Below, piece after piece: positions 1,425-60,439 of a stretch of DNA of 64,000 bases. The first letter of the stretch is position 1, and every line of letters starts with the position of its first letter. Position numbers and translations under genes: made by a program. The notes below the pieces were generated by a model. The model saw only the letters and a list, made by a program, of their open reading frames with translations. It did not search any database and was not told where the DNA came from. The stretch is from a virus: positions 1-64,000 of IMG/VR virus record IMGVR_UViG_3300045988_164842; one strand, 5' to 3'.

Positions 1425-2342
1425 ATGGAAAGCAAGTATAAGGTAATGGCGATAGAGAAAGCTGTAGTAAAAAGATTTCCGGAAGCAAGGAAACCACACT
1501 CTGTGGATTATGATGAAGCAAAAGATTTCATGTTTGAGTTCAAAGCTGATGGTGAAGCTTATACGTCTGCGGTAGTTCCTTACATATGTGATTGGAGAGA
1601 ATTCCGTCAGATTTACAACTTTGACCCAGACCTTGAAAATGAACTGGTTTCAAATTTTCAGAAAGACTTTGAATATCCTGTCGAATTTCTTTTCGGTCTA
1701 CCGTGCAATGTTTTTGTTCTGAAGACAAAAGAGAGTGAATTTATTATCAGAAGCGTTCCTGAGAAAAGACACTTTGCAATATTTGACTTACAGGCTCAAG
1801 CTGAATTTCTTATGGACGTAGAACAAGAAATGAAAACATTTTCTTATCGTAGTCTTGTAAAATCTGAAGGTGTTTCAAAGGAAACGTGGGATGGCTGTGG
1901 CGGTAACACTGACGGTGTGATTTTGAACTTCTTGTTGTTAAGCAAGGTCAAAAGAAATGCGTGCCGTACTGTATTTCCACTCGTAGTTTATCTTTCATAT
2001 GTAAACGCTGATATCAAGCCATATCAGCCCACTGCAAAACGTAAAGCTCCTGTAGGTGCAATATCGCAGATGATACAGGAAAACGCTGTCGGTTTACGTA
2101 TAGGCTCTGTTCTTCGTAAAACAAATCAGATAATAAAAGAGATTAACGAAGATGTTGAAGCGGAGAAACAATCGGGCGAAAAGAAACCACGTAAGAAAAT
2201 GATTGCCCATATCAGACGTGGACACCCACACCGTTATTGGTGCAATGACGAAGACGGTTCAAAGAAACTTGTGGTGCGTTGGGTTGAAACGACTGTGGTT
2301 AATGGCGACATAGAAACCGCAACAATACATGAAGTAAAGTGA
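1425..2342 (+). CDS. hypothetical protein; paralog of 34824..35867 (shared C-terminal basic motif)
   Basis: GAGGTGATAAT RBS. C-terminus HIRRGHPHRYWCNDEDGSKKLVVRWVETTVVNG aligns with MRKAHFHHYWVNDNIAGKKKLILKWLAPILVNG of 34824..35867. LVVYLSYVNADI also aligns with LVLYVSSVNAEI. Confidence 0.75.
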   Translation: MESKYKVMAIEKAVVKRFPEARKPHSVDYDEAKDFMFEFKADGEAYTSAVVPYICDWREFRQIYNFDPDLENELVSNFQKDFEYPVEFLFGLPCNVFVLKTKESEFIIRSVPEKRHFAIFDLQAQAEFLMDVEQEMKTFSYRSLVKSEGVSKETWDGCGGNTDGVILNFLLLSKVKRNACRTVFPLVVYLSYVNADIKPYQPTAKRKAPVGAISQMIQENAVGLRIGSVLRKTNQIIKEINEDVEAEKQSGEKKPRKKMIAHIRRGHPHRYWCNDEDGSKKLVVRWVETTVVNGDIETATIHEVK

Positions 2343-4584: not shown

Positions 4585-4713
4585 ATGCACGGAAAGTGAG
4601 CAAAAGTCAATAAGTTTACTCAGAAAACGTGCATAATGCACAAAAAAATGACGAATTTTCATGCAATTTTTAAACCAGAAAAGTATTGACAAACAGCGAA
4701 AAACGAGTATAAT
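4585..4713. promoter_or_regulatory. divergent switch region: operators plus near-consensus rightward promoter
   Basis: TTGACA(4686-4691)-16 nt-TATAAT(4708-4713). Palindrome GTGCATAATGCAC (4629-4641), plus ATGCAC half-site at 4585-4590 and ATGCAA at 4661-4666. Confidence 0.65.
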
Positions 4714-4851
4714 AATAACTGTAATCAGTGTTTCCTGTTCATCATGAGAATTGCTTTAAAAATCATGAGCAGAAAAGATAAAGAGAAACTCTATAGAAAA
4801 TTCTTTTCTTGATTAAAGACGGTATCTTGAAAATTGAAAAGGAGAGATAAT

Positions 4852-5598
4852 ATGGATTTACAAATTTTTGAAAATTCAGATTTCGGGAAAATCCGAGTTG
4901 TCGAAATTGACGGTGAAGCGTGGTTTGTACTCACAGACGTTTGCAAGACTTTAAACTTAACAAGTCCTCACAAAGTTGCAGATAGACTTGAAGAAGACGA
5001 AAAGGGTAGGAGTCAAATTCCTACCCTTGGCGGAACACAGGGAATGACAGTTGTTAATGAATCAGGGCTTTACGCTGTTATCCTTCGTTCTGATAAGCCA
5101 CAGGCTAAACCATTCAGGAAGTGGATTACTCCCGAGGTAATTCCGTCAATCCGTAAAACTGGCTCATACTCAGTTAATCAGACTGACAGCTACATGATTT
5201 CCGACCCTATCAAGCGTGCAGAGCGTTGGATAGAAGAAGAAAAGGTTCGTCAGGCGTTGGCTCTTAAGGTCGAAAGTCAGTCAAAGGAAATCAAAATCAT
5301 GCAGCCAAAAGCGGATTACTTTGATGACCTTGTTGACAGAAATCTTCTTACGGGTTTTCGTGAAACCGCAAAGGAACTCAAAGTTGGTGAAAGAAACTTC
5401 ATTAAGTTTTTACTCGACAACAAGTTTGTGTTCAGAGATGGTAACAAAAAGCTTATGCCATATGCCAATAAAAATGACGGACTGTTTGAAGTTAAGAAAG
5501 TCAAAAGCTCAAAGTCTTCATGGAGCGGTGTTCGCACTATGATAACTCCAAAAGGCAGAGAAACTTTCAGACTTCTTATGAAAAGGAGTAAGGCATGA
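4852..5598 (+). CDS. BRO-N domain / KilAC-type antirepressor-like protein
   Basis: Start MDLQIFENSDFGKIRVVEIDGEAWF follows GGAGAGATAAT. BRO-N signature NESGLYAVILRSDKPQAKPFRKWITPEVIPSIRK. C-terminal KPKADYFDDLVDRNLLTGFRETAKEL is KilAC-like. Confidence 0.8.
   Translation: MDLQIFENSDFGKIRVVEIDGEAWFVLTDVCKTLNLTSPHKVADRLEEDEKGRSQIPTLGGTQGMTVVNESGLYAVILRSDKPQAKPFRKWITPEVIPSIRKTGSYSVNQTDSYMISDPIKRAERWIEEEKVRQALALKVESQSKEIKIMQPKADYFDDLVDRNLLTGFRETAKELKVGERNFIKFLLDNKFVFRDGNKKLMPYANKNDGLFEVKKVKSSKSSWSGVRTMITPKGRETFRLLMKRSKA
5062..5117. repeat. 56-bp inverted repeat partner (pairs with 30199..30254)
   Basis: 55/56 identity to the reverse complement of 30199..30254, inside two BRO-N paralogs on opposite strands. 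Confidence 0.8.
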
Positions 5599-6668
5599 AG
5601 GTATTAAGCCTGTTTGACGGAATTTCTTGCGGAATGGTAGCTCTTGAACGCACAGGTATTCCTGTAGAAGTTTATGATGCCTTTGAAATTGACAAGTACG
5701 CAATATCAATTTCAAGTAAGAATTATCCCGAAATCAATCATCACGGCAATGTATTTGACGGTGATTTTACACAGTTTAAGGGCTATAACTTACTGCTTGG
5801 TGGTTCACCTTGCACATACTGGTCTATCGCAAAGAAAGGAAGAGAAATTACTTCTGATGGTGTTGGTGGAACACTTTTTATGGAGTATGTTCGTGCTTTG
5901 CGTGAAAGTGAGTGCAGGTATTTCCTTTACGAAAATAATAACAGTATACATCAAAACATAAAGGATTTTATCTCCAAGCAACTTGGTGTGAAACCTATAA
6001 TGATAAATTCAGCTCTTGTGTCAGCACAGCAAAGAAGACGTTGTTACTGGACGAATATCCCGAACATTACACAGCCCGATGATAAGGGCATTATGCTTGC
6101 GGATATTTTGGAAGACGGCTTGCCGTGGCAGGACAAAAGCTATTGTATGACTTCATCTTACAACGGTGCTGTGTTATATAACACTTTGGAGAGAAAACAG
6201 CGGACAATGGTTGCTGTTCCGATTTATGGAGCTGCACAAAGAGGAAGATACATTGCTACAGGTCAGACTGAACAGCGAATCGAAGTACGAAAAGATGAAA
6301 AATCCAACTGCTTGACAACTATACAGAAAGACTCTTTGGTCTGTAAACCGGTTCGTATAGGTACATTCGGCAACGGTGGACAAGGACAACGAATCTATTC
6401 TGTTCGTGGAAAGTCTATTACCTTAACTGCAAATGGTGGAGGTCGGGGAGGGAAAACAGGTTTGTATAAAATCGACTTGCCCGATGGTGACTATATTATT
6501 CGAAAGCTGACACCTGTGGAAGCTGAAAGATTGCAGACTTTACCTGATAACTATACGGCAGGAGTTTCTAACACTCAGAGGTATAAATGTATTGGGAACG
6601 GATGGACAGTTGATGTAATCGCCCATATCTTAAAAAAACTTAAAGGAGTAAGACATGAACGGAATTGA
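5595..6668 (+). CDS. DNA (cytosine-5)-methyltransferase
   Basis: Motif I LSLFDGISCG, motif IV GGSPCTYWS, motif VI FLYENN, motif VIII QQRRR, motif X GNGWTV. Confidence 0.9.
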   Translation: MKVLSLFDGISCGMVALERTGIPVEVYDAFEIDKYAISISSKNYPEINHHGNVFDGDFTQFKGYNLLLGGSPCTYWSIAKKGREITSDGVGGTLFMEYVRALRESECRYFLYENNNSIHQNIKDFISKQLGVKPIMINSALVSAQQRRRCYWTNIPNITQPDDKGIMLADILEDGLPWQDKSYCMTSSYNGAVLYNTLERKQRTMVAVPIYGAAQRGRYIATGQTEQRIEVRKDEKSNCLTTIQKDSLVCKPVRIGTFGNGGQGQRIYSVRGKSITLTANGGGRGGKTGLYKIDLPDGDYIIRKLTPVEAERLQTLPDNYTAGVSNTQRYKCIGNGWTVDVIAHILKKLKGVRHERN

Positions 6669-7386
6669 AATTTATAAAAACACTGAATTCGGCGAAGTGA
6701 GAACTTACATAGACGAAAACGGCGAAGTAATGTTCTGCGGGAAAGATGTAGCTACGGCTTTGGGTTATAAAGATACGAATTATGCTTTGAAACTTCATTG
6801 TAGAAAAGATGAAATTAAGAAACATCTTTTTGCTACTAATAGTGGAAAACAGGAGTTTAACTGCATATCCGAAAGAAATCTTTGTAGGCTGATAATTCAC
6901 AGTAAGCTCCCGTCTGCTGAAAGATTTGAAAAGTGGGTATTTGATGAAATACTTCCGAGCGTAAGACAGTCACCATACTACGAAGAGCTTCTTCAGATGT
7001 TCAAAGCTGAAAGGGAAAGAAATAATAAACTTGAACTTCTGTTTCTGGCTCAGAAACAAATGATAGCTGAAAAAGATAGCAGGATTGATTATCGTGACGT
7101 GATACTTGTTCATGAGAAACCTGTAAGTTTTTCAGAAATCGCAAAAGACTATGGCATTACAACTGTTTGGCTTAAAGATTTTCTTGCAGATAAGAACATT
7201 CTCTTTAGCAAAAAAGGCAAACAGTTCTTACGTCCACAATACGCTAATCAGGGTTATACGGTGACGGAAATTGAAGATGATGAAGTGAGTGTAAGATGGA
7301 CACAAAAAGGAAGATTGTTTCTTTACAGGTTTTTAAAAGAGAATTCCATTCTTCCAACAATCGAAAAGGAGGGATACCATGAATGA
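6655..7386 (+). CDS. BRO-N domain antirepressor-like protein
   Basis: N-terminus IEIYKNTEFGEVRTYIDENGEVMFCGKDVATALGY and SKLPSAERFEKWVFDEILPSVRQ. C-terminal part resembles the C-terminus of 7379..8185 (WTQKGRLFLY). Confidence 0.75.
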   Translation: MNGIEIYKNTEFGEVRTYIDENGEVMFCGKDVATALGYKDTNYALKLHCRKDEIKKHLFATNSGKQEFNCISERNLCRLIIHSKLPSAERFEKWVFDEILPSVRQSPYYEELLQMFKAERERNNKLELLFLAQKQMIAEKDSRIDYRDVILVHEKPVSFSEIAKDYGITTVWLKDFLADKNILFSKKGKQFLRPQYANQGYTVTEIEDDEVSVRWTQKGRLFLYRFLKENSILPTIEKEGYHE

Positions 7387-8185
7387 TATTCAAATTTTTG
7401 AAAATTCAGAGTTCGGAAAAATAAGAACTCTGAAAATTAATGGAGAACCGTGGTTTGTTGGAAAAGACATTGCAGAAAACCTCGGATATACAGAATCCGC
7501 AAAAGCAGTAAGAAAGTATGTTGACAGTGAAGATAAAGGGGTGTCCAAAATGGACACCCCCGGAGGAAAACAAGATATAATCATCATCAACGAAAGCGGT
7601 TTATACTCTCTCGTACTTTCAAGTAAGCTCCCAACAGCAAAGCAGTTCAAGCGTTGGGTTACTTCTGAGGTTCTTCCGTCAATCCGCAAGCACGGTGCTT
7701 ATATGTCAGAACAGGTTCTTGAAGAAGTCACGAAAAATCCAGACTTCATGATAGGACTGTTACAGAAGCTTAAAGCTGAGAAGAAAAAGAACGAAGAGCT
7801 TCAGACGGCTGTCATGGCACAATCCCGTCAGATATCAGAGATGAAACCAAAGGCGAGTTACTACGATATCGTTCTTAACTGCAAAGACCTTGTCAGCGTA
7901 ACTCAGATTGCGAAAGACTACGGCAAGTCTGCACAATGGCTGAACAACTTCCTTGCGGAAAAGAAAATTCAGTTTAAGAGAAATAAGAACTGGCTCTTAT
8001 ACCAGAAATACTCGGAAGCTGGATATGCGTCAACCAAAACGCAGATATTTAACGGACGTGATGGAGAAGTCCATACATCGGTACACACTTACTGGACACA
8101 AAAGGGACGACTTTTCTTGTACGGACTTTTGAAACAACATGGAGTTCTTCCGATAATTGAAAAAGAAAACCATGACGTACCTTGA
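7379..8185 (+). CDS. BRO-N / KilAC-type antirepressor-like protein
   Basis: IQIFENSEFGKIRTLKINGEPWFVGKDIA; NESGLYSLVLSSKLPTAKQFKRWVTSEVLPSIRKHG; C-terminal KPKASYYDIVLNCKDLVSVTQIAKDYG. Confidence 0.8.
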   Translation: MNDIQIFENSEFGKIRTLKINGEPWFVGKDIAENLGYTESAKAVRKYVDSEDKGVSKMDTPGGKQDIIIINESGLYSLVLSSKLPTAKQFKRWVTSEVLPSIRKHGAYMSEQVLEEVTKNPDFMIGLLQKLKAEKKKNEELQTAVMAQSRQISEMKPKASYYDIVLNCKDLVSVTQIAKDYGKSAQWLNNFLAEKKIQFKRNKNWLLYQKYSEAGYASTKTQIFNGRDGEVHTSVHTYWTQKGRLFLYGLLKQHGVLPIIEKENHDVP

Positions 8186-8199
8186 AAGGAGGTGAAAAC

Positions 8200-8436
8200 A
8201 TGATAGAGAGAGAAGAGCATGAATGTGAATTGACTATCTAAGCAGGCAATGATTTCGTTCAGTTCTCCATGGACGGCGACAATGCTGACATATTGAAAGT
8301 GTTAGCCTCTGTTGTTGATGTGGTCATCTGTGAAACAACAGAAGAAGGTAAAGAGATTGAAGCTCTCGAACGTCTATTCGCTGATGTGAAAGAAATGTTC
8401 AGAATAGAAGCGGAATTCAGAATGGAAAGGAGGTGA
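8200..8436 (+). CDS. paralog of 8441..8656 interrupted by an in-frame TAA (8239-8241): read-through candidate or pseudogene
   Basis: RBS and start GAAAGGAGGTGAAAACATGATAGA are identical to the next gene. MIEREEHECELTI*AGNDFVQFSMDGDNADILKVLAS aligns with MIEEHECVLKIEATEKSYNMHFEGTGEEILALLST. The downstream internal ATG at 8269 has no RBS. Confidence 0.5.
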
Positions 8437-8440
8437 AAAC

Positions 8441-8656
8441 ATGATAGAAGAGCATGAATGTGTTCTGAAAATTGAAGCCACTGAGAAGTCTTACAATATG
8501 CACTTCGAAGGAACTGGGGAAGAAATACTGGCTCTTTTGTCGACTTCTATTATTGAGGTTATCAACTGTCTTGCAGAATACAATGACAAAGAAAAGGTTT
8601 CAGATGTTATAAACTTGGCGGTAAAAAACATACTCAGGAGAGAAAGAAAGGCATGA
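8441..8656 (+). CDS. hypothetical small protein (71 aa), intact copy of the tandem pair
   Basis: GGAGGTGAAAAC RBS; paralog of 8200..8436. Confidence 0.7.
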   Translation: MIEEHECVLKIEATEKSYNMHFEGTGEEILALLSTSIIEVINCLAEYNDKEKVSDVINLAVKNILRRERKA

Positions 8657-8895
8657 TAACAATGTATAAAAATAGCCATTTTAATTTTGAAAAAGACACT
8701 TTCGTAAAAGAATACCTCGAACCGTGTCTTATCGCAATGGACATCGGTGTGAAGTCGGTAGAGTACACCACAAACGAATACGGCGATGAAACAGTCAAGG
8801 TTACATACAACAACGGCTTCAAACATGAAGTGAACGTAACCTGTGACAGTCTGGAAGCTCTGACAAAAGACGTTGTTGTTCGTATATGCGAATAA
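8653..8895 (+). CDS. hypothetical protein (80 aa)
   Basis: ATGA overlap with the upstream gene; no recognisable motif. Confidence 0.6.
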   Translation: MITMYKNSHFNFEKDTFVKEYLEPCLIAMDIGVKSVEYTTNEYGDETVKVTYNNGFKHEVNVTCDSLEALTKDVVVRICE

Positions 8896-9065
8896 AGATT
8901 GACGGCACGGATAAAGAAATCCGAAAGGAAATTGACCGCTATAGCAGGCGGAAAGATATTCAGGTTATGACGGTCAGTTATCCCTTTCTTAGGGATTACG
9001 AAAACGGAAAGTCCGGGCTGAGAACTTGTGTGATTACAGCAATACTGAAAGGAGATAATATGTAG
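8886..9065 (+). CDS. hypothetical protein (59 aa, below the ORF-track cutoff)
   Basis: ATG at 8886 overlaps the upstream stop. Hand translation: MRIKIDGTDKEIRKEIDRYSRRKDIQVMTVSYPFLRDYENGKSGLRTCVITAILKGDNM, TAG at 9063-9065. Confidence 0.5.
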   Translation: MRIKIDGTDKEIRKEIDRYSRRKDIQVMTVSYPFLRDYENGKSGLRTCVITAILKGDNM

Positions 9066-9304
9066 TGGCAAATATTTGTTTTGACTGTCAGAGAGCATTA
9101 CCATTAAGAGGTTGTCCGTGGGCAGACAAATTTGAACCAGTTGAAGGCTGGACGGCTACACCTGTGACAATAAAAACAAACATCACTCATAGAGATAGTT
9201 ACAACATTACAGCGTGTCCGCTTTTTTTACAGGACAAGCCAAAAACTGTAGAAATCAAAGAACCCGTAAAAAACACATATTCTTCAATTTACCTTAGACG
9301 GTGA
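9065..9304 (+). CDS. Cys-containing small protein (79 aa)
   Basis: GTG start overlapping the upstream TAG. Contains CFDCQ...GCPWADKFEPVEGWTA...ACPLF. Confidence 0.55.
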   Translation: MANICFDCQRALPLRGCPWADKFEPVEGWTATPVTIKTNITHRDSYNITACPLFLQDKPKTVEIKEPVKNTYSSIYLRR

Positions 9305-9311
9305 AAGATGT

Positions 9312-9452
9312 GTGGAGGAATACTCAAGTGCGGAGAAAGCAGCAAAAGCATTTGGAGTGTCATCATGGAGTATATACCGTATGTTAAAAACACCATTAGA
9401 AAAAGATGATTACATATTAAAGAAGGTTATAAGGTATGAAAAAAGTAAGTAA
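9312..9452 (+). CDS. small HTH protein candidate (46 aa)
   Basis: GTG start. Contains YSSAEKAAKAFGVSSWSIYRMLK, a typical helix-turn-helix. The RBS is weak, so the start is uncertain. Confidence 0.35.
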   Translation: MEEYSSAEKAAKAFGVSSWSIYRMLKTPLEKDDYILKKVIRYEKSK

Positions 9453-9714
9453 GATGGGAAGTCATATCGCTACTGTATGTGCCTATGTGGGTTTCTCAAC
9501 ACTGTTCTCTATGTCAGGGATAGCAGTGGCAAGACACTGGAACAGTGAAACCTTGGCGATATATATGCTGATATTCGGAACAATTTCAGTATGGGGCTTA
9601 TGGAGAAGCGTTCCGCTAAGAAAGATAGGCAGAAAATTCTTTTCGCCAGTAAAGGCAAAAGAGAAGAAATCGGTCAGATATAAATTCAGAATAAGAAGAA
9701 AGGAGAAAATTTAA
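9436..9714 (+). CDS. membrane protein (92 aa)
   Basis: Two hydrophobic segments (IATVCAYVGFSTLFSMSGIAV, LAIYMLIFGTISVWGLW) and a basic C-terminus. Confidence 0.6.
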   Translation: MKKVSKMGSHIATVCAYVGFSTLFSMSGIAVARHWNSETLAIYMLIFGTISVWGLWRSVPLRKIGRKFFSPVKAKEKKSVRYKFRIRRKEKI

Positions 9715-10451
9715 TGTTTGAAAAGCTGTACGAAGAAATTCAGGAAGATATAAAAAATGGCAATGTCGACAAGTATCTTTTTGAAAAGGTTCTTGATGGT
9801 AAATACATAGTGCTTACAGATGAATATGTTGTCACACTTATAATTCCAGAATATATCGCACCAAAGAAATTTCGCAAGGCAGTCGATGTGGACAACGTTT
9901 TCATGCGTACGTTTTATGTATGTTCTGACGGTAAAACATACATAAACAATATCAGCACGCCAGACACTAAGCCGGTGAAAGCTACGCTTGTAGATAAAGA
10001 GGAACTCTCGGTGTTTGGGAAGTGTCTTATGGCAGAAGAAGAAAATCTTGTCGCTATCAGGTACAAGGAAACTCAGAAGATACATCTCTGTGTTCTCAGT
10101 GCTACTTTGGGGACAGTTACAATCTATAGGACGGTTGCTGTAATCGAAGATAGACAAGCTAAGATGGAATCGAAGATAAATCTTTTACAGGTTTTATATC
10201 CGGAGTTGCCTGTAATCCGGATACCTAACGAGGGGATTGCGATAAACCCAAAGGTATATATCGCAGAATATGTAGATGATGAAAACGGCGTTCGTTTTTA
10301 CTCAAGAGAGGATTTCCGCTACCTGTATTTCAATGCGAACAAATCTTCTTTTGAAAATATGTCGGTGAACGAAAGACACTACATACTGGACAAGAAGTGT
10401 GCGGAACTCGACTGGAAAGAAGCAATTTTTGTAGAGAGTGAGGAACTGTAA
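9714..10451 (+). CDS. hypothetical protein (245 aa)
   Basis: AAAGGAGAAAAT RBS; TAATG coupling with neighbours. Confidence 0.65.
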   Translation: MFEKLYEEIQEDIKNGNVDKYLFEKVLDGKYIVLTDEYVVTLIIPEYIAPKKFRKAVDVDNVFMRTFYVCSDGKTYINNISTPDTKPVKATLVDKEELSVFGKCLMAEEENLVAIRYKETQKIHLCVLSATLGTVTIYRTVAVIEDRQAKMESKINLLQVLYPELPVIRIPNEGIAINPKVYIAEYVDDENGVRFYSREDFRYLYFNANKSSFENMSVNERHYILDKKCAELDWKEAIFVESEEL

Positions 10452-10747
10452 TGAGTATAATGTCAGAATATTACGATTACAATGACCCGAAAGGAACATT
10501 CTGTAAAGAGTGTGGCGACCGTATTGATGAGGAAGCAGATGGCTTATGTGAAGACTGTTTCAGTGAAGGAAAGAAGTATGACAAAAAAGAGGTATCAAAC
10601 TTCCTTGATTACTGGAACGGCTATGTACCAGACGACTTTTTTGAGGAAAAAGAAAGAGACTTTCTTGAAAAGTATTTCAACCTGATGGAAAAGGAATGGT
10701 ACAAGTACATCTCTGACGTTTACGATGATGAAAAAAAGGACTGCTGA
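10451..10747 (+). CDS. zinc-ribbon small acidic protein (98 aa)
   Basis: CKECGDRIDEEADGLCEDC; translationally coupled (TAATG). Confidence 0.6.
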   Translation: MSIMSEYYDYNDPKGTFCKECGDRIDEEADGLCEDCFSEGKKYDKKEVSNFLDYWNGYVPDDFFEEKERDFLEKYFNLMEKEWYKYISDVYDDEKKDC

Positions 10748-10750
10748 CGT

Positions 10751-11305
10751 ATGAACAAACATAAAAACTCCACAAACATCGGAAAGCACAACAAAGGTTC
10801 TGCAAACATAGGCTCAGACAACAAGGGAGTAGGCAACATAGGAAATATAAATATAGGCAGAGACAATATAGGTGCATTAAGCATTGGACTTTTAAATGTA
10901 GGTCTTTATAATCACGGCAAGATAAACGTTGGTTCTGGGAATTTTGGTATAGGCAATGTAGGCAGAAACAATATAGGCTTTTTTAACATCGGTATACAAA
11001 ATTTTGGTGTATTTAATACTAATGGGTTTCAGTTCGATGGCATAGATATAACTTCCGATAAAGAAATCAAAAACTTAAACAAGAAAATATTCACATTCAA
11101 TAAGCCAACTGACTGGACTTTTGAAAAGCTTATGGCTTCAATAGACTTTGATATGCTTTTCAACAAAATAGACAGTGGATATTCGGCAGTTAGTAAAAAG
11201 ACATTTAATGTTTTTAAATGCATTCCTAATTTTGATGAAGCTCTTTTGCACAAAATCTTGGCGGTGTGTGGTTATTATGATGATGATGGAACATTTTATT
11301 GGTGA
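10751..11305 (+). CDS. pentapeptide-repeat protein
   Basis: About 18 consecutive pentapeptides (NIGKH NKGSA NIGSD NKGVG NIGNI NIGRD NIGAL ... NFGVF). The C-terminal domain (FNKPTDWTFEKLMAS ... IPNFDEALLHKI) is shared with 36217..37017. Confidence 0.85.
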   Translation: MNKHKNSTNIGKHNKGSANIGSDNKGVGNIGNINIGRDNIGALSIGLLNVGLYNHGKINVGSGNFGIGNVGRNNIGFFNIGIQNFGVFNTNGFQFDGIDITSDKEIKNLNKKIFTFNKPTDWTFEKLMASIDFDMLFNKIDSGYSAVSKKTFNVFKCIPNFDEALLHKILAVCGYYDDDGTFYW

Positions 11306-12104: not shown

Positions 12105-12759
12105 ACCAAACGAATACACGATAACATATGAGCTGGATGGACAGGAAATTAAATTAACTTTTCCGATTGTTCAGAACTTTGTTGTTAGCGGTAACGGACA
12201 GATAACATTGCAGGAATATAAAGCATTTACGGAACTTTGCAAATGCAGAAAGCTTAACCCTTTCCTGAAAGAAGCGTACCTTATTAAGTTCGGAAATGCA
12301 CCTGCACAAATTGTTGTTGGTAAAGATGCTGTATTCAAAAAGGCATTGAGAAACCCAAACTACAATGGTCTGCGTAGTGGTATTATTGTAAAAACGAAAA
12401 ATGGTGAAATAATCGAGCGAAAGGGCTGTTTCTACGACATAGGAACAGAACAGCTTGTAGGCGGTTGGGCGGAAGTTTACAGAAAAGACATTGAGTATCC
12501 TACATACTGTAGCGTTGCTTTTTCAGAAGTCGCACAAACTAAAGCAGGTGGTTCTTTGAATAGTAACTGGGCTACAAAGGGTGCAACAATGGTCGAAAAA
12601 GTAGCTAAAGTCAGAGCATTGAGAGATACTTTTATGGAAGACCTCGGCGGAATGTATGAACCCGAAGAAGTCGGAAAACCAGAGTCAGAGCAGGAAGTTA
12701 TTCAGCAGGACGAACCTACAGAAACAGAAAACAAAGAAATTTCGATGAGTGATTTGTGA
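12097..12759 (+). CDS. recT: RecT-family single-strand annealing protein
   Basis: CKCRKLNPFLKEAYLIKFGNAPAQIVVGKD ... GGWAEVYRKD ... ATKGATMVEKVAKVRALRDTF. The second ATG is chosen for RBS spacing (the first ATG is at 12091). Confidence 0.8.
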   Translation: MSEPNEYTITYELDGQEIKLTFPIVQNFVVSGNGQITLQEYKAFTELCKCRKLNPFLKEAYLIKFGNAPAQIVVGKDAVFKKALRNPNYNGLRSGIIVKTKNGEIIERKGCFYDIGTEQLVGGWAEVYRKDIEYPTYCSVAFSEVAQTKAGGSLNSNWATKGATMVEKVAKVRALRDTFMEDLGGMYEPEEVGKPESEQEVIQQDEPTETENKEISMSDL

Positions 12760-13391
12760 TGGAATACAACGTTGTAGCTACAGGAAGTAGTGGCAATGCT
12801 GTAATCCTTGACAATAAAATCTTGATTGATTGTGGTGTCAGCTTCAAGCACCTTTCTTCTTATGTCAAAAATCTCGGCATAGTTCTACTGACACACATTC
12901 ATCAAGACCACTTTAAAAAGTCCACAATCGAACGCTTGGCAAAAGAAAGACCGATGTTACGATTTGCTTGCTGTGAATGGCTCGCAGAACCTTTAAAACA
13001 ATGCGGGGTAAAAAACATTGACATACTGGAAATCGGCAAGCTATATAACTACAAGCAGTTTGAAATCTCCCCTTTTAAGCTGTATCATGATGTAGAGAAT
13101 TGTGGGTATAGAATATTTATCAATGGTGAAAAAGCGTTATATGCCACAGATACAGCAACTTTAGATGGTATTTCAGCGAAAGATTATAGTTTATATCTGG
13201 TAGAAGCAAATTATCAGGCAGATGAAATCCATCAAAGGATTGCTGAAAAAATATCAGAACAAAAATATGTATATGAATATAGAGTTTTCAAAACTCATTT
13301 AAGTAAAGAAAATTGTGATAGGTGGCTGATGGAGAACAAAAACGAAAGCAGTGAAATAGTGTATCTTCATCAACACAAAGAAAGGAAATAA
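12759..13391 (+). CDS. metallo-beta-lactamase-fold hydrolase
   Basis: HXHXDH motif (LTHIHQDHF). ATG overlaps the RecT stop (GTGATGG). Confidence 0.75.
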   Translation: MEYNVVATGSSGNAVILDNKILIDCGVSFKHLSSYVKNLGIVLLTHIHQDHFKKSTIERLAKERPMLRFACCEWLAEPLKQCGVKNIDILEIGKLYNYKQFEISPFKLYHDVENCGYRIFINGEKALYATDTATLDGISAKDYSLYLVEANYQADEIHQRIAEKISEQKYVYEYRVFKTHLSKENCDRWLMENKNESSEIVYLHQHKERK

Positions 13392-23423: not shown

Positions 23424-24164
23424 TCACTTCATGAGCAGGCGGAACGTTTCTCTGCCTTTAACGGTAACGAAGGTCTGAATTCCACTCCATGTTGTCTTTG
23501 CACTTTTACTTTCCTTTACTTCAAACAAGCCGTTGTTCTTTTCAGCGTACGGCATGAGTTTTCCTTTCTTGTCACGGTAAAGATAACCGTTATTGAGCAG
23601 GAAATTGATAAACTTTCTTTCGCCCGTCCTAAGTTCTTTTGCGGTTTCACGGAATGAAGTAAGCGTATTGCGGTCAACAAGGTCGTCAAAGTAGTCAGCT
23701 TTCGGCTTCATAATCTGGTTTTCAGCTTCAAGGCGTTTGCGTTCAAGTCTTTCTTCCTTGAGTTTCTGAAATACCTGAATAGCTAAATCGGGGTTTTCAA
23801 GGAGTTCATCTGTAGCGTACATACCGTGTTTGCGGATTGACTTAATAGCTTCTCTTACAAACGCTCTGAAATGTCTTGCTTTATCAGTCTTTGAAAGCAT
23901 TGTGATTTCGTATATGCCATCTTCCGTGAAAAGCCTTGTATTGTATTGTTTGCCGTCAGTAGCCCTCATTTTGAGGGTAACTGAAAATTCAATATTTTTG
24001 AGGTATTCATTTCTTGAAATCAAGTTGTCAATAGCTTTCTGAGGATTGCTGTATCCAAGACAACTTCCAAGCTGTGTCGATGTCATGAGTATCTCGTTGT
24101 TATCACTTTCGTAAAAGTCACACTGGTTGCCGCAAAACATTTCTGATTTTACAATTTCGTACAT
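23424..24164 (-). CDS. BRO-N-like / KilAC antirepressor-like protein
   Basis: N-terminal LGSCLGYSNPQKAI...EDGIYEITMLSKTDKARHFRAFVREAIKSIRKHG. C-terminal KPKADYFDDLVDRNTLTSFRETAKEL...KGRETFRLLMK is nearly collinear with the C-terminus of 4852..5598. Confidence 0.8.
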   Translation of the reverse strand: MYEIVKSEMFCGNQCDFYESDNNEILMTSTQLGSCLGYSNPQKAIDNLISRNEYLKNIEFSVTLKMRATDGKQYNTRLFTEDGIYEITMLSKTDKARHFRAFVREAIKSIRKHGMYATDELLENPDLAIQVFQKLKEERLERKRLEAENQIMKPKADYFDDLVDRNTLTSFRETAKELRTGERKFINFLLNNGYLYRDKKGKLMPYAEKNNGLFEVKESKSAKTTWSGIQTFVTVKGRETFRLLMK

Positions 24165-24165
24165 A

Positions 24166-25215
24166 TTATCTTTCCTTTCCCATAACGCTTACATACTTTA
24201 CAAATTCTGATTTCAAAACATACTGCTGTTGTTCGAGAAAGTTAATAACTTTGCTTGCATTAACCTGAAACCATTCACCGAAAACCCTGCATTCATTAAA
24301 GTGTTTATGTACCATGTTTTCAATGTCAAAAGCGTTACTGCACACGATTGACTTATATACAAGGTCAAGTTTTGTACCTGCACCAGTTTCAAGAACGTGA
24401 AGTCTTTTTTCAACATTGTTTGAAACACCGACTTTAACTCTGTCGTTTTCAGGATTTCTAATGACATAGACAAACTGTCTGCTTCTGCTGTCCTGTGGTA
24501 ACACGCTTTCAACCACTCTTGCCTTAAACATATCCATGATGGCTTGCTTCATTTTTGCAAAACTGATAATAAACCTCGCTCTGTATTCTGTAGAGTATTT
24601 AAGCATTAACTGCATAGTAGCCATTTCGCCAAGGTCATATTCTTTGTAAGTCTGCCCGTTGCTTGCGAGGTAATCAACTTCCTTGAAATCGTTAATGATA
24701 AGCTGAATGTCACTGTCCAGATTTGGACAGTGGATTTTCTGAAGCTTGTCAAGTTCATCACGAATATCTCTAAGAATATGCCTATGGTCTTTACCTGTAA
24801 CTTCCGCAATTTTTCTTGATGTTGTTATCGGAATACCGTTTTTACTGAACACAAGCCCAGCTATATTGCCTTTGAATGTGATGGTTTCAAGCTTTGTTGT
24901 CATCTTACGGATTGACGGGAGAACTTCAGAAGTAACCCAACGCTTGAACTTTTTTGCATTGGACATCTTGCTTGAGAGGATTAAACTGTAAAGACCAGAC
25001 TCGTTGATTAATATCGCTTCTCGATTTTGACCTGACAGAACGATTCGTTCTGTCAGCTTATCTTCATCATCAACATGGTCTCTTATTGCCTTTGCTGTGT
25101 TTGTGTATTCAAGAATATCTGCAATATCTTTTCCGACAAACCACGGCTCTCCGTTGATTTCCATTGTTCTGATTGTTCCAAATTCCGCTTTTTCAAAAAT
25201 TCTGATTTCGTTCAT
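24166..25215 (-). CDS. BRO-N + Rha-like + T5orf172 (GIY-YIG-related) fusion protein
   Basis: Start MNEIRIFEKAEFGTIRTMEINGEPWFVGKDIA. Middle GIPITTSRKIAEVTGKDHRHILRDIR. C-terminal FVYVIRNPENDRVKVGVSNNVEKRLHVLETG...FGEWFQV. Confidence 0.8.
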   Translation of the reverse strand: MNEIRIFEKAEFGTIRTMEINGEPWFVGKDIADILEYTNTAKAIRDHVDDEDKLTERIVLSGQNREAILINESGLYSLILSSKMSNAKKFKRWVTSEVLPSIRKMTTKLETITFKGNIAGLVFSKNGIPITTSRKIAEVTGKDHRHILRDIRDELDKLQKIHCPNLDSDIQLIINDFKEVDYLASNGQTYKEYDLGEMATMQLMLKYSTEYRARFIISFAKMKQAIMDMFKARVVESVLPQDSRSRQFVYVIRNPENDRVKVGVSNNVEKRLHVLETGAGTKLDLVYKSIVCSNAFDIENMVHKHFNECRVFGEWFQVNASKVINFLEQQQYVLKSEFVKYVSVMGKER

Positions 25216-25231
25216 GTGTTGTCCCCTTTCA

Positions 25232-25435
25232 TTAACCGCCGATAAGTTCAAGTTCTTCAAGCCCTTTGTCATAGTAAGTATCTGCATAACCAACAGGCAT
25301 AGGTTCTGTGATAAAGTTTTCATATTCATCTTTGTAAATATCCTGCATATGTATTTTTGAGATTTTGCCCGACACCCAAAGACCAAAGATATATCCCATA
25401 AGATTTTGCCACTGAGTAAATGCTTTATTTTTCAT
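25232..25435 (-). CDS. hypothetical protein (67 aa)
   Basis: Tightly packed between the dUTPase and a BRO gene; no motif. Confidence 0.5.
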   Translation of the reverse strand: MKNKAFTQWQNLMGYIFGLWVSGKISKIHMQDIYKDEYENFITEPMPVGYADTYYDKGLEELELIGG

Positions 25436-29690: not shown

Positions 29691-30467
29691 TTAAGCAGTT
29701 GCTTCATGTTCCATCAATGGAAGTATTCCGTCATTTTTCAGCATTTTGTAAATAAACAAACGCCCTTTTTGTGACCAGCAAAGAAATTCTCTAACATGAG
29801 GAACTCCACTAGTGTCAGTAACAAGATTTGTCTTGGTGCTTGCATAACCTTTATCAGAATACTTCTGGTATAAGAGCCAGATGTTTCCCTGACGGTACTG
29901 GATTTTCTTTTCACGAAGATAACGGTTAAGCCATATTGCTGACTTGCCGTAATCTTTTGCGATAACTGAAATCGGTACGAGGTCTTTGCAGTTAAGAACA
30001 AGGTCGTAGTAGCTTGCTTTCGGTTTCATGACTTCAATTTCTGCTGAAAGTTCTTTGTTTTTATTCTGTTCTGACTGGAGTGTTTGAAGCAGAGTGATGA
30101 GGTTCTCCGGTGTGCTGAGTGCCTGAGTAAGTGCCTGAGGTGTCATGTATGCACCGTGTTTACGAATTGACGGAATTACTTCGGAGGTAATCCATTTTCT
30201 GAATGGTTTAGCTTGTGGCTTATCAGAACGAAGGATAACAGCGTAAAGCCCTGACTCGTTGATTACCGTCATCTCTCTCTTCTGTCTACCTGATGTCAAT
30301 TTGACTGACATCAGCTCGTCTTTATCCAATCTGCTGGCAACCATTCTTGAATTGCCTATTTCAAGCACTTTACAGACATCAGCCAGAACCCACCATGGCT
30401 CATTGTTAATTTCCGTCACTCTGATTTTGCCGAAGGTTTCATTTTCAAAAATTCTGATTTCGTTCAT
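29691..30467 (-). CDS. BRO-N / KilAC antirepressor-like protein
   Basis: Start MNEIRIFENETFGKIRVTEINNEPWW. NESGLYAVILRSDKPQAKPFRKWITSEVIPSIRKHG. C-terminal KPKASYYDLVLNCKDLVPISVIAKDYG. Confidence 0.8.
   Translation of the reverse strand: MNEIRIFENETFGKIRVTEINNEPWWVLADVCKVLEIGNSRMVASRLDKDELMSVKLTSGRQKREMTVINESGLYAVILRSDKPQAKPFRKWITSEVIPSIRKHGAYMTPQALTQALSTPENLITLLQTLQSEQNKNKELSAEIEVMKPKASYYDLVLNCKDLVPISVIAKDYGKSAIWLNRYLREKKIQYRQGNIWLLYQKYSDKGYASTKTNLVTDTSGVPHVREFLCWSQKGRLFIYKMLKNDGILPLMEHEATA
30199..30254. repeat. 56-bp inverted repeat partner (pairs with 5062..5117)
   Basis: Reverse complement matches 5062..5117 at 55/56 positions. Confidence 0.8.
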
Positions 30468-30468
30468 G

Positions 30469-31230
30469 TTAAAAATCCTTTCTATACTTATTGCTTTTGC
30501 GTGTTGATTTTTTTCTGACCTGTACAAGCTTTCCTTTCTTAGGCATATTTTTAGCTGTGTTCGCCTTAATAGACATCTTCATCTTTTCAAAACTGACAAT
30601 GATTTTCGCCCAATACTCTTTAAAATATCCGGGTATTAGCCACATAGCAGCCATTTCGCCGAGTTCGTATTCCGAACACTTTTCATAGTCTTCATTAAGG
30701 TAGTAGCTTTTTCTGAAATCGTTTATTATAATCCGGAGGTCAAGACTATCGCAAGGTTCATTATACAAGTAGTTAATTTCCTCGTCGATAGCACAACAGA
30801 TTTCAAGGTTGCTTTTTCCTACGAGTTTCGCTATTGCTCTTGAAGTAGTTACAGGAATTCCATTTTTATTGAACACAAGATAGTCCACATTATCTTCATA
30901 GGTAAGCATTTCAGTTTCTTCATTGTTTGAGCGGAAGAACGGCAGAATTTCAGTGTCTATCCACTTCCTAAAGTACCCTACTTCAAAACATTGAGCATTC
31001 TTAATAATGGTGTCCACACCATGTTTGTTAATCGCAAATTCGCCTGATGACAAAGTGACTTTATCGACTTCGTCTATCATGTCTTTAGAAGGCGTAACTT
31101 TCATCATGTTAGCGACTTCCTTTTCATTAAACCAAGGTTCTCCATCAATCTTCGCAACTTTGAGTGAGCCGAAAAAGTCATTCCAGAAAACCGAAAAATC
31201 ATTGCTGACAATATTTGATACACTACGCAT
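30469..31230 (-). CDS. degenerate BRO-N + Rha-like protein
   Basis: FGSLKVAKIDGEPWFNEKEVANMM and GIPVTTSRAIAKLVGKSN. Start is placed at MRSVSN (AAAGGAAAG RBS); the alternative upstream ATG at 31293 lacks an RBS. Confidence 0.65.
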   Translation of the reverse strand: MRSVSNIVSNDFSVFWNDFFGSLKVAKIDGEPWFNEKEVANMMKVTPSKDMIDEVDKVTLSSGEFAINKHGVDTIIKNAQCFEVGYFRKWIDTEILPFFRSNNEETEMLTYEDNVDYLVFNKNGIPVTTSRAIAKLVGKSNLEICCAIDEEINYLYNEPCDSLDLRIIINDFRKSYYLNEDYEKCSEYELGEMAAMWLIPGYFKEYWAKIIVSFEKMKMSIKANTAKNMPKKGKLVQVRKKSTRKSNKYRKDF

Positions 31231-31302
31231 AGATTCTTTCCTTTCTTTAATAGTTAGCGGAGTTTTGTTTTCCGCTACTCGAATTATGTCCATCCGCTAT
31301 GA

Positions 31303-39998: not shown

Positions 39999-40517
39999 CT
40001 ATTTATATCTTCTCAAAGGTGTTAATCCTGCGTTTTCACACATCTGATACACTTCAGTATCGTCCATTATACGAGTAACACGAATTTCGCCTGCAATAAT
40101 CCATGTTCCGTACATATTTGGCGATGTTTTATAGCGATAGTAACCGCCGACCGGAATTTTTCTGAGATATGCATTACGCCTGATTACGACACCACACTTG
40201 TTCATTCCTGTAATATCTGCTTCCTCCTGATAAGAACGCTCGTTGTACTCAACTTCTGCCCATACACAGCAATCTTTCAGTGTTTTTATGCCATTATGCA
40301 CACTGTAGATATGCTGGACGTATGGAAGCTCTTCGTTGATGTGCCAGCCTGGTCTATAAGCAAGTTTCCCGAGCCGAGATTTTACTTTTCCGTCTGGTGT
40401 TCTTTCGCCCTCTTTGGCGGATAACCATACACCAACAGGGATTGTTTCAGTTGCCTCCACATAAAGAGGGTGTAAGTTTCCGTTTTTGTCCTGTCTGAAT
40501 AATTTGTAGCCTTTCAT
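39999..40517 (-). CDS. hypothetical protein (172 aa)
   Basis: GGAGTTATC RBS-like sequence. MKGYKLFRQDKNGNLHPLYV...RPGWHI; no function recognised. Confidence 0.65.
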   Translation of the reverse strand: MKGYKLFRQDKNGNLHPLYVEATETIPVGVWLSAKEGERTPDGKVKSRLGKLAYRPGWHINEELPYVQHIYSVHNGIKTLKDCCVWAEVEYNERSYQEEADITGMNKCGVVIRRNAYLRKIPVGGYYRYKTSPNMYGTWIIAGEIRVTRIMDDTEVYQMCENAGLTPLRRYK

Positions 40518-40545
40518 AGATAACTCCTTTCTGCGATAAAAAGTA

Positions 40546-40615
40546 AGAGCAACACTTTTATCGGCGTTGCTCTTTGTGCATAGAAAAGGACTAACGCTTT
40601 CGACGGCATTAGTCC
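40546..40615 (-). terminator. tandem intrinsic terminators
   Basis: GGACTAA(40588-40594)/TTAGTCC(40609-40615) and AAGAGCAAC(40546-40554)/GTTGCTCTT(40566-40574). Each is followed on the minus strand by a T-rich tract. Confidence 0.65.
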
Positions 40616-40640
40616 CTATTAAGTATTTAATTGTTTTGCC

Positions 40641-40892
40641 TTAGAATTCTACTACCTCTTCAAAATCTGGGTCGTTCGGGTCAAAGTCGATGACATTTTC
40701 TTCACGGTTGAAATTTACTGCAAGCTCCTCAACTGTGTCAAGGTCTTCAATGCCGCTGTAGTCGCCATTTTGGGCGACTTCGAGCGTCAGCGGTTCGTCA
40801 TACAAACCCTCGTAGAACATATAACCTTTGCCGCTTCCGTCAGCAAAGACTACGCAATTATAAGCGTTTGTTTTCACGAAATATCTTCTCAT
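40641..40892 (-). CDS. small acidic protein (83 aa)
   Basis: Start MRRYFVKTNAYNC follows AAAAGGAGAAAATA. Asp/Glu-rich C-terminus. Confidence 0.6.
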   Translation of the reverse strand: MRRYFVKTNAYNCVVFADGSGKGYMFYEGLYDEPLTLEVAQNGDYSGIEDLDTVEELAVNFNREENVIDFDPNDPDFEEVVEF

Positions 40893-40973
40893 TATTTTCT
40901 CCTTTTCTGCAAAACCTTGAATGAGGGGGCTTTGCATTCCCTCTTTTTCACATCTCTCCGTGCAGGCAATATA

Positions 40974-41564
40974 TTAACCAAAGCAGTCATCTATGAGACT
41001 GTCGAGAGCAACGCCGATATCACCCCAGCACACAGCCAGTTTGGGAAAACCCCAGGTTTGAGCTGTTTCACAAAACTTATCATAAAGTCGTTCTGTAGCG
41101 TACTCAATGAGGTCATCTCTTAAACGACTTCTGACCTCGTTAAGTACTTCATTATTGCTTTCGTCATCCTCGTCATCTTCACTGCCGTAACCCAGTTCCC
41201 TGCGAACTTCTTCGTCCGTGCTGTCGTATCCGTCCATCAGCTTGACATCAAAGAGTGCCTCTACGTCAGGCGTACAAACAAACGTCCAAGGGCTGTTTTC
41301 ATTTTTATTCCTTGGCAGATTTCCATCCTCGTCTACAAAGCAAACATGAACGCTTTCGTACAGCCTGTTGTCTACATACATTCCGTCCCAACTTACTTCT
41401 GGGTACAGAAGTTTCCTGATTATTTGAATTCCGTCAATCGGAATTTCTTCCTTTGTCGACAAGTCTATGACTTTATCTTTGTGAACCTCGTATTTGTTTC
41501 CGTCTGCATCAATACCGAGATTATTTTTTTGGTCGTATATAAAAATGTATTCAATATAGCTCAT
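40974..41564 (-). CDS. acidic hypothetical protein (196 aa)
   Basis: Start MSYIEYIFIYDQ follows AGAAAGGCGG. Contains the acidic tract GSEDDEDDESNNE. Confidence 0.6.
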   Translation of the reverse strand: MSYIEYIFIYDQKNNLGIDADGNKYEVHKDKVIDLSTKEEIPIDGIQIIRKLLYPEVSWDGMYVDNRLYESVHVCFVDEDGNLPRNKNENSPWTFVCTPDVEALFDVKLMDGYDSTDEEVRRELGYGSEDDEDDESNNEVLNEVRSRLRDDLIEYATERLYDKFCETAQTWGFPKLAVCWGDIGVALDSLIDDCFG

Positions 41565-41626
41565 AATTGAACCGCCTTTCTTTCTGGTTAAAATGTATGA
41601 GCGGATTTTGCGTCCGCTCACCGATG

Positions 41627-52501: not shown

Positions 52502-52583
52502 GCTACCATGGTGAAATAGGAAGACACAGCGGACTTTAAGTTCGTTGAGGAAACTCATGTCGGTTCAAGTCCGACTGGTGGTT
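52502..52583 (+). tRNA. type II tRNA with anticodon UUA (reads UAA; ochre-suppressor type)
   Basis: Hand fold. Acceptor GCTACCA/TGGTGGT (2 G-U pairs). TG. D arm GTG-AAATAGGAAGA-CAC. Anticodon stem GCGGA/TTCGT. Loop C-T-TTA-A-G. Variable arm TGAG-GAAA-CTCA. T arm GTCGG-TTCAAGT-CCGAC. Discriminator T; no encoded CCA. Confidence 0.8.
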
Positions 52584-58838: not shown

Positions 58839-58850
58839 AGGAGAAGATAT

Positions 58851-59357: not shown

Positions 59358-59368
59358 GAGGTGATAAT

Positions 59369-60394: not shown

Positions 60395-60408
60395 TAGGGT
60401 CTATATAC

Positions 60409-60439
60409 AGGGCATGGGCGACTATGCCCTTATTTTTTT
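60409..60439 (+). terminator. intrinsic terminator after the capsid gene
   Basis: AGGGCAT(60409-60415)/ATGCCCT(60424-60430), then TATTTTTTT. Confidence 0.8.

What the first reader, a model, noticed from the sequence alone, without database searches (positions are those of the whole stretch)
8200..8656. Tandem gene duplicate whose first copy carries an in-frame TAA, in a genome encoding a UAA-reading tRNA
8184-8208 and 8425-8449 share the same RBS and start (GAAAGGAGGTGAAAACATGATAGA). The first copy translates as MIEREEHECELTI-TAA-AGNDFVQFSMDGDNADILKVLASVVDVV... It remains alignable to the second copy (MIEEHECVLKIEATEKSYNMHFEGTGEEILALLSTSIIEV...) on both sides of the stop. The TAA (8239-8241) aligns with GAA (Glu) in the paralog. 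The frame stays open for 64 further codons to TGA at 8434, and the next ATG (8269) has no RBS. Either this is a fresh nonsense pseudogene, or its expression depends on the tRNA(UUA) at 52502..52583.
Basis: partly seen in the sequence, partly recalled or inferred. Interest (0 to 1): 0.65.

Follow-up and report, generated by a model that had tools for sequence, protein, structure and literature searches.

The report
Recent nonsense mutation in phage gene
The in-frame TAA is a single G-to-T change found in one strain of a gut phage, in a small early gene that every relative keeps intact with GAA (Glu). It is an ordinary fresh nonsense allele, not a site evolved to be read by the phage's UAA-reading tRNA.

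Summary
The sequence observation is correct. A 78-codon ORF (8200-8436) carries TAA at 8239-8241 and sits next to a 71-aa paralog with the same ribosome-binding site and start. A tRNA with anticodon TTA lies at 52502-52583.

- All 14 other contigs with this gene have GAA at that codon, and all 8 full-length homolog clusters have Glu there.
- One near-identical strain differs at 2 of 6,464 bases, and one of the two is this G-to-T change.
- TAA is the commonest terminator in the window (46 of 80 genes).
- No other real gene has an in-frame stop across 76,259 aligned codons.
- The tRNA(UUA) is present across the clade, which diverges down to 93% identity. A metagenome holding the GAA allele also holds the tRNA.

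So this is a fresh nonsense allele of a non-essential early gene. Read-through by the tRNA would be incidental and is untested.

A side result is more interesting. The tRNA descends from a phage tRNA-Leu(UAA), which sits at the same position in relatives about 78% identical. It lies in the least variable stretch of its 4.2 kb neighbourhood. Its stem changes keep pairing (G1-C72, G1.U72, A1-U72). It has lost the A73 that LeuRS needs.

The parts
8200..8436 (+). Copy 1 of a small acidic early gene. It is 78 codons when intact and is interrupted here at codon 14.
   Evidence: Translation. Intact 74-87 aa homologs at 79-96% identity. pN/pS of 0.1-0.3 among orthologs.
8239..8241 (+). In-frame TAA. 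It is GAA (Glu14) in every relative, so the change is a single G-to-T at 8239.
   Evidence: L023 differs from window 4722-11185 at 2 of 6,464 positions, and one of them is this base.
8188..8192 (+). Shine-Dalgarno core GGAGG of copy 1. The upstream ANT gene's TGA stop lies at 8183-8185.
   Evidence: Read from the sequence. Repeat search.
8269..8436 (+). Residual 55-aa ORF from the first ATG after the stop, with no Shine-Dalgarno. It would lack the predicted N-terminal beta-hairpin.
   Evidence: P0009. The AF2 model of ortholog P0002 places strands at residues 9-15 and 20-26.
8441..8656 (+). Copy 2, the intact 71-aa paralog. Its GGAGG lies at 8429-8433, and copy 1's TGA stop (8434-8436) sits inside its SD-to-start spacer.
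   Evidence: Weak PHROG matches of unknown function.
4686..4713 (+). Perfect sigma-70 consensus (TTGACA, 16 nt, TATAAT) at the head of the rightward early operon that contains both copies.
   Evidence: The gene order (HTH repressors on the minus strand, then Bro-N/ANT genes, then the small genes) comes.
52502..52583 (+). tRNA with anticodon UUA, a long variable arm and discriminator U73. It derives from a phage tRNA-Leu(UAA). It is not shown to act on 8239.

Best explanation
A very recent point mutation (G to T at 8239, GAA Glu14 to TAA) has truncated copy 1 of a tandem pair of small acidic early genes in one strain of an SPbeta-like gut Firmicutes phage of about 88 kb.

Shown:
- The ancestral state is GAA.
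- The change is private to one strain.
- The rest of the gene is unchanged.
- The gene family is otherwise under purifying selection.
- The genome uses the standard code, with TAA as its main terminator.

Inferred:
- Ribosomes stop after 13 residues (MIEREEHECELTI).
- At most a little N-terminally truncated product comes from ATG 8269.
- The gene is effectively a null or strong hypomorph.
- The phage tolerates this because the gene is accessory and an intact paralog follows it.
- Any read-through by the phage's own tRNA(UUA) would be an incidental by-product, not a designed dependence.
For: - Orthologs: all 8 full-length homolog clusters read MIEREEHECELTIEAGND, with Glu at the site. All 10 ortholog loci L004-L013 carry GAA. 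The near-identical strains L018/L023, L020, L021 and L022 also carry GAA and an intact 78-aa gene.
- Recency: L023 differs from the window at 2 of 6,464 bases, one being this G-to-T. The window gene is otherwise identical to L018's intact gene.
- Distribution: the TAA allele is seen only in L019 (the window's own contig) and L024, both 100% identical to the window.
- Selection on the family: pN/pS is 0.09-0.31 among orthologs.
- No reassignment: terminators are TAA 46, TGA 32 and TAG 2 of 80 genes. In 76,259 aligned codons between window genes and relatives there is no other internal stop in a real gene.
- The tRNA is independent of the allele. The anticodon is TTA in all 16 loci of the clade at 93-100% identity. 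L015 (tRNA TTA) and L022 (GAA allele) come from the same run, ERR11504728.
- A second, different lesion (start ATG to ATA) occurs in the same gene in L004/L005. This fits dispensability.
Against: - The same genome carries a tRNA that should read UAA. That tRNA looks selectively maintained, so some full-length product cannot be excluded.
- The allele's frequency within the sample is unknown because no reads were available.
- The gene's function is unknown: no Pfam or informative PHROG hit, and no PDB fold match. 'Non-essential' is therefore an inference from the two natural lesions and the neighbouring paralog.
Confidence: 0.85

Rival explanations
1. Suppressor-buffered or suppressor-dependent expression. 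The phage tRNA(UUA) reads the TAA at a useful rate once it is expressed. Full-length protein is then made, with Leu or another residue at position 14, and the allele is functional or conditionally expressed.
For: - The tRNA(UUA) is on the same contig.
- It scores above the Rfam threshold.
- It lies in the least variable 172 nt of a 4.2 kb region: 2 variable sites against 12.4 expected, P = 3e-4.
- Its stem changes keep pairing.
- The frame downstream of the TAA is intact.
Against: - No relative has TAA here, although the whole clade has the tRNA. There is no co-evolution.
- Position 14 is invariant Glu in orthologs and in the paralog. A tRNA-Leu derivative would not restore Glu.
- The tRNA lacks A73, the key LeuRS determinant (PMC9976931). 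It has 2-3 G.U pairs in the anticodon stem and a possible C32-G38 pair. It scores 12 bits below its tRNA-Leu relative. Charging and decoding efficiency are therefore doubtful.
- The gene sits in the early operon, whereas the tRNA sits just before the late structural operon.
- The intact downstream frame is expected anyway for a mutation this recent.
Confidence: 0.1
2. Sequencing or assembly artefact. The true sequence is GAA.
For: The difference is a single base, and only contigs identical to the window show it.
Against: Two separately built assemblies give the same base within 100% identical flanks: ENA ERZ27260692 k99_114274 and the Logan assembly of ERR1110358. A consensus substitution error at ordinary coverage is unlikely. 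The two may share one read set, which I could not check.
Confidence: 0.03
3. Selected loss. The gene product is sensed by a host defence or is otherwise costly in some hosts, so knock-out alleles are favoured. The TAA here and the ATG-to-ATA change in L004/L005 would be two such alleles. This refines the best explanation rather than replacing it.
For: Two independent disabling-type lesions occur in the same 78-codon gene among closely related strains. No other real gene is hit in 76,259 aligned codons.
Against: There are only two events. ATA may still initiate weakly. Most strains keep the gene intact, with pN/pS of 0.1-0.3. There are no host or defence data.
Confidence: 0.1

Closest known systems
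Natural nonsense (ochre) allele or nascent pseudogene of an accessory phage gene. It is the natural counterpart of laboratory ochre mutants of phages.
   Same: A single-base sense-to-TAA change, an intact downstream frame, sense codons in all relatives, and a distribution limited to one strain.
   Different: It lies in a genome that itself carries a UAA-reading tRNA, so it could be phenotypically leaky. This is untested.
Stop-codon-recoded gut phages: TAG to Gln (code 15) and TGA to Trp (code 4) in crAss-like, Lak, Agate and other clades (bioRxiv 10.1101/2021.08.26.457843).
   Same: A phage-encoded tRNA with a stop-reading anticodon, placed just before the late or structural genes.
   Different: In those phages the recoded stop is rare as a terminator and recurs in-frame in many late and lysis genes. 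Here TAA ends 46 of 80 genes, there is one in-frame TAA in the window, it lies in an early gene, and it is not conserved. That survey reports only TAG to Gln and TGA to Trp reassignments in phages whose code differs from their host's.
Classical ochre suppressor tRNAs made by one anticodon change: E. coli supC (tRNA-Tyr), supG/supL (tRNA-Lys), supB (tRNA-Gln), and T4 psu mutants. This item rests on my own knowledge and was not checked in a paper here.
   Same: The anticodon UUA arises by a single base change from a sense tRNA. Here it is UAA to UUA at position 35, relative to the syntenic tRNA-Leu(UAA) of L025/L026.
   Different: The parent is tRNA-Leu(UAA). The tRNA is wild-type and conserved across a natural phage clade. 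It has also changed its discriminator (A73 to U) and weakened or re-paired 1-72 and 3-70, so its amino-acid identity is unclear.

Membership tests
Stop-codon reassignment (alternative genetic code) in a phage | The stop codon recurs in-frame in many genes of the genome | tested here: not met
   8239 is the only in-frame stop in a real gene. ORFs are contiguous under the standard code.
Stop-codon reassignment (alternative genetic code) in a phage | The reassigned codon is depleted as a terminator | tested here: not met
   TAA ends 46 of 80 genes. The suppressor clade has no fewer TAA stops than the tRNA-Leu clade, 6 against 4 of 13 orthologs.
Stop-codon reassignment (alternative genetic code) in a phage | A cognate suppressor tRNA is encoded | tested here: met
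   tRNA with anticodon TTA at 52502-52583.
Programmed translational read-through site | The stop codon is conserved at the site in orthologs | tested here: not met
   GAA in 14 of 14 other contigs and Glu in 8 of 8 full-length homolog clusters.
Programmed translational read-through site | A leaky stop context or a stimulatory downstream structure | not tested
   The context is ATC TAA GCA. I did no reporter or structure analysis. A terminator-like hairpin at 8284-8306 is a pattern match only.
Recent nonsense allele or nascent pseudogene | The ancestral state is a sense codon one substitution away | tested here: met
   GAA against TAA. The paralog also has GAA.
Recent nonsense allele or nascent pseudogene | Restricted to one lineage, with no further decay | tested here: met
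   Found only in contigs 100% identical to the window. There are no other differences from L018's intact gene.
Recent nonsense allele or nascent pseudogene | Loss of the protein product | not testable with these tools
   This needs proteomics, ribosome profiling or a reporter.
Ochre suppressor tRNA (functional) | A cloverleaf tRNA with anticodon UUA | tested here: met
   Rfam 43.4 bits. 98.9% of stem cells are paired over 4 distinct sequences.
Ochre suppressor tRNA (functional) | Maintained by selection | tested here: inconclusive
   The tRNA lies in the least variable 172-nt window of a 4.2 kb region (P = 3e-4). For the tRNA alone there are 2 variable sites in 82 against 5.9 expected, P = 0.06. 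There is a G-C, G.U, A-U series at pair 1-72, but only 4 distinct sequences, and the shuffle controls are not exceeded.
Ochre suppressor tRNA (functional) | Aminoacylated, and decodes UAA in vivo | not testable with these tools
   A73, which LeuRS requires, is replaced by U (PMC9976931).
tRNA-Leu(UAA) lineage | Homology and synteny with a bona fide tRNA-Leu | tested here: met
   70 of 82 positions are identical to the tRNA-Leu(TAA) at the same position in L025/L026, while the flanks are diverged.
tRNA-Leu(UAA) lineage | Leucine identity set (A73) | tested here: not met
   U73 in all suppressor-clade copies.

The most novel reading that the evidence does not exclude
The clade maintains, under selection, a working UAA/UAG-reading tRNA that evolved from its own tRNA-Leu(UAA). 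This happens in a standard-code phage whose main terminator is TAA. That tRNA would make TAA nonsense alleles such as 8239 leaky and therefore tolerable. This would be a first, pre-recoding stage of TAA reassignment, which the phage recoding survey read here does not report (it reports only TAG and TGA reassignments).
Probability: 0.12. Interest if true: 0.7.

Novelty: already known. Interest (0 to 1): 0.22.

Why it matters
As stated, the finding is an ordinary strain-private nonsense SNP in a small gene of unknown function. It gives no evidence for TAA recoding, and settling that prevents a false lead.

What remains worth attention is the tRNA. A natural, conserved phage tRNA with anticodon UUA derives from tRNA-Leu(UAA) and has an altered discriminator, in a genome that ends most genes with TAA. 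If it is active, it raises two questions. One is what a phage gains from ochre suppression without recoding. The other is whether it lowers the cost of nonsense mutations.

Tried and rejected
- IMG/VR scans found nothing usable: copy 1's C-terminal part gave 3 distant loci at 32% identity, and copy 2 and three tRNA patterns gave nothing.
- GTDB genome scans with a tRNA pattern and with the family alignment found nothing, so the host stays unidentified.
- GenBank phages have no close relative of the locus. Only the ANT gene matches, and the tRNA matches cyanophage tRNA-Leu weakly.
- Pfam and PHROGs give no function for either copy.
- The AF2 model has a modest pLDDT of 69, and the PDB fold search has no hit below E = 0.5.
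- I looked for programmed read-through targets among TAA-terminated genes. Long in-frame extensions are simply the next gene, each with its own Shine-Dalgarno. The in-frame junction after 57660-58838 is also present in the tRNA-Leu clade. I rejected this as a signal.
- I looked for TAA avoidance or backup stops in the suppressor clade and found none.
- No release factor, aaRS or tRNA-modification gene appears among the window proteins scanned or in the Pfam tables of the loci.
- The formal covariation count on the tRNA has too few distinct sequences (4) to be significant.

Full report
**1. The observation**

Translation of 8200-8436 (+) gives MIEREEHECELTI*AGNDFVQFSMDGDNADILKVLASVVDVVICETTEEGKEIEALERLFADVKEMFRIEAEFRMERR*. 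The TAA lies at 8239-8241, and 64 open codons follow to TGA at 8434-8436.

A second gene, 8441-8656 (71 aa), starts with the same ribosome-binding site and first codons. The 25-mer GGAAAGGAGGTGAAAACATGATAGA occurs at 8424-8448, and at 8183-8207 with one mismatch. None is expected by chance.

The two products are paralogs: 37% identity over 41 aa, E = 7e-7. The TAA aligns with GAA in copy 2. The next in-frame start after the stop is ATG 8269, which has no Shine-Dalgarno.

ARAGORN and Rfam both find one tRNA in the window, at 52502-52583, with anticodon TTA. It scores 43.4 bits against a threshold of 29.

**2. The genetic code of the genome**

Under the standard code the window is tightly packed with long ORFs. 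Of 80 genes, 46 end in TAA, 32 in TGA and 2 in TAG. TAA is therefore the main terminator, not a reassigned codon.

**3. Comparative evidence on the codon**

All read ...ECELTIEAGND..., with Glu at the site. It also returned the window's own 55-aa fragment.

The DNA of ten contigs carrying these homologs has GAA at the codon.

A look-up of the exact copy-2 protein and of the upstream ANT protein found near-identical strains.
- L018/L023 (an 87.8 kb contig), L020, L021 and L022 all have GAA and an intact 78-aa gene.
- Only L019 (the window's own 88,292-bp contig) and L024 (a Logan assembly of ERR1110358) have TAA. Both are 100% identical to the window.
- L023 differs from window 4722-11185 at 2 of 6,464 positions, and one of them is this G-to-T.
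- Apart from that base, the window gene is identical to L018's.

Among orthologs pN/pS is 0.09-0.31, so the family is a real gene under constraint.

Searching window proteins against all loci and the reverse, and again with curated genes over 76,259 aligned codons, found no other internal stop in a real gene. The remaining hits were non-coding frames, natural C-terminal stops, or an over-extended N-terminus.

**4. Where the gene sits and what it is**

The gene lies in a rightward early operon. A perfect sigma-70 consensus at 4686-4713 heads the operon, opposite HTH repressor-like genes. Bro-N/ANT antirepressor genes and a DNA methylase follow, and the RecT, SSB, primase-helicase and PolIII replication genes come after the small genes.

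The phage is SPbeta-like. It has YonG, YonD, YonB, YomX and YomW domains and a YonO-type RdRP-family polymerase. A Rep3 initiator gene lies just outside the window.

Neither copy matches Pfam or an informative PHROG. An AF2 model of ortholog P0002 (pLDDT 69) shows a beta-hairpin at residues 9-26 followed by two helices. It has no PDB fold match. Codon 14 lies in the first strand. The 13-residue product, or a product restarted at Met24, would lack the hairpin and the invariant EEHEC motif.

In L004/L005 the same gene has ATG changed to ATA at its start. This is a second, independent, probably disabling change.

**5. The tRNA**

The tRNA has anticodon TTA in all 16 loci of the clade that cover it: L014-L017, L027-L031, L034-L041. 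These loci are 93-100% identical to the window. L015 (tRNA TTA) and L022 (GAA allele) come from the same run. The tRNA is therefore a clade feature unrelated to the private TAA.

In more distant relatives the tRNA at the same position is tRNA-Leu with anticodon TAA. These are L025/L026, about 78% nucleotide identity, with the YonG-like protein 79% identical. That tRNA has a fully Watson-Crick acceptor stem and A73, and it scores 55.6 bits.

The window tRNA differs from it at 12 of 82 positions.
- A35 to U, which makes the anticodon UUA.
- A73 to U.
- A38 to G.
- Stem changes that all keep pairing: G1.U72, U3.G70, G27.U43 and G30.U40.

Within the suppressor clade, four loci have A1-U72, and one has G31.U39. 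Pair 1-72 therefore runs G-C, G.U, A-U.

The 172 nt around the tRNA are the least variable stretch of a 4.2 kb alignment of eight strains. There are 2 variable sites against 12.4 expected (P = 3e-4), and only 1.3% of windows are as low. For the tRNA alone the test is weak, P = 0.06. The formal pair count rests on four distinct sequences and is not significant.

I read this as a probably functional tRNA of uncertain amino-acid identity. E. coli LeuRS ignores the anticodon but requires A73 (PMC9976931). The anticodon arm is weak, and ViennaRNA extends it through C32-G38.

There is no sign that the genome has adapted to suppression. TAA stops are not avoided relative to the tRNA-Leu clade, 6 against 4 of 13 orthologs. 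Long in-frame extensions after TAA are just the next genes, each with its own Shine-Dalgarno.

**6. Interpretation**

The best explanation is a fresh GAA-to-TAA nonsense mutation, private to one strain, in an accessory early gene. Termination after 13 residues is inferred. Incidental read-through by tRNA(UUA) is possible but unsupported, for four reasons.
- No relative keeps TAA at the site.
- The conserved residue is Glu, which a tRNA-Leu derivative would not restore.
- The gene is early, while the tRNA precedes the late operon.
- Charging of the tRNA is doubtful.

An artefact is unlikely because two assemblies agree, although they may share reads.

**7. Comparison with known systems**

Recoded gut phages reassign TAG to Gln or TGA to Trp. 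In them the recoded codon is rare as a terminator and recurs in late genes. The survey I read reports only those two reassignments in phages whose code differs from their host's (10.1101/2021.08.26.457843).

This window fails those criteria, apart from having a stop-reading tRNA. The allele is best filed as an ordinary natural ochre mutation. The tRNA is analogous to classical single-base ochre suppressors, but it is wild-type, phage-borne, derived from tRNA-Leu and altered at the discriminator.

**8. Verdict**

Interest in the finding itself is low. The tRNA is a moderately interesting side lead.

Noticed in passing
window 52502-52583; L025 5135-5216; L035 1891-1972; L034 6621-6702 (-): The UUA-anticodon tRNA descends from a phage tRNA-Leu(UAA) found at the same position in relatives about 78% identical. 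It has U73 instead of A73. Pair 1-72 runs G-C, G.U, A-U across lineages. It lies in the least variable 172 nt of its 4.2 kb neighbourhood. The amino acid it would insert is unclear.
   Followed up: partly
L004 9688-9690; L005 (same gene, 658-912): The ortholog of copy 1 has ATA in place of the ATG start. The gene caller therefore used an upstream TTG that has no Shine-Dalgarno. This is a second, independent, probably disabling change in the same small gene.
   Followed up: partly
window 8180-8231 vs 8421-8466; L006 10001 and 10242: In the window's sub-clade the ribosome-binding site and first dozen or so codons of copies 1 and 2 are nearly identical at the DNA level, while the rest is about 37% identical in protein. 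In L006 the 5' end of copy 2 is diverged (MIEKEKYEC...). This suggests a short gene-conversion tract.
   Followed up: partly
window 48527-51220 (+) and 53102-63577 (+): An RdRP-family (PF05183, YonO-like) polymerase is followed by YonG, YonD, YonB, YomX and YomW-type late genes. The element is an SPbeta-like gut phage. Its nearest database relatives are Bacillus phage BUCT082 (43% aa identity), then Clostridium phage c-st and Enterocloster phages at about 30%. A Rep3_N initiator lies just upstream of the window start, so it may be a phage-plasmid.
   Followed up: partly
window 4834-5598, 6655-7386, 7379-8185, 23424-24164, 24166-25386, 29691-30527, 30469-31293: There are at least seven Bro-N, ANT or Rha-domain (antirepressor-like) paralogs in one window. 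One of them is fused to a T5orf172/MUG113 domain.
   Followed up: no
window 39999-41621 (-): Three consecutive genes lie in the same reading frame: 40974-41621, 40641-40937 and 39999-40517. The first two end in TAA, and the 123-nt spacer between the second and third is open in that frame. Ochre read-through would fuse them. This may be chance.
   Followed up: no
whole window: TAG is almost unused as a terminator, 2 of 80 genes. A U34 ochre-type anticodon would also read UAG.
   Followed up: no
L025 and L026 5251-5517: In the tRNA-Leu clade, a Tad2-like (anti-Thoeris, PF11195) gene is inserted directly downstream of the tRNA. This intergenic spot therefore carries accessory or counter-defence cargo in relatives.
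   Followed up: no
window 1425-2342 (+) and 12756-13391 (+): By the Pfam tables of the identical locus L019, these are an AcrVA2-like protein (PF26125) and a Lactamase_B_2 protein with a faint Anti-Pycsar Apyc1 hit. Both are candidate anti-defence genes.
   Followed up: no
window 44670-45871: A stretch of about 1.2 kb has no ORF longer than about 50 aa. It lies between the leftward block ending at 44669 and the rightward block starting at 45872. It has no Rfam hit at gathering threshold. It may be a divergent regulatory region.
   Followed up: no
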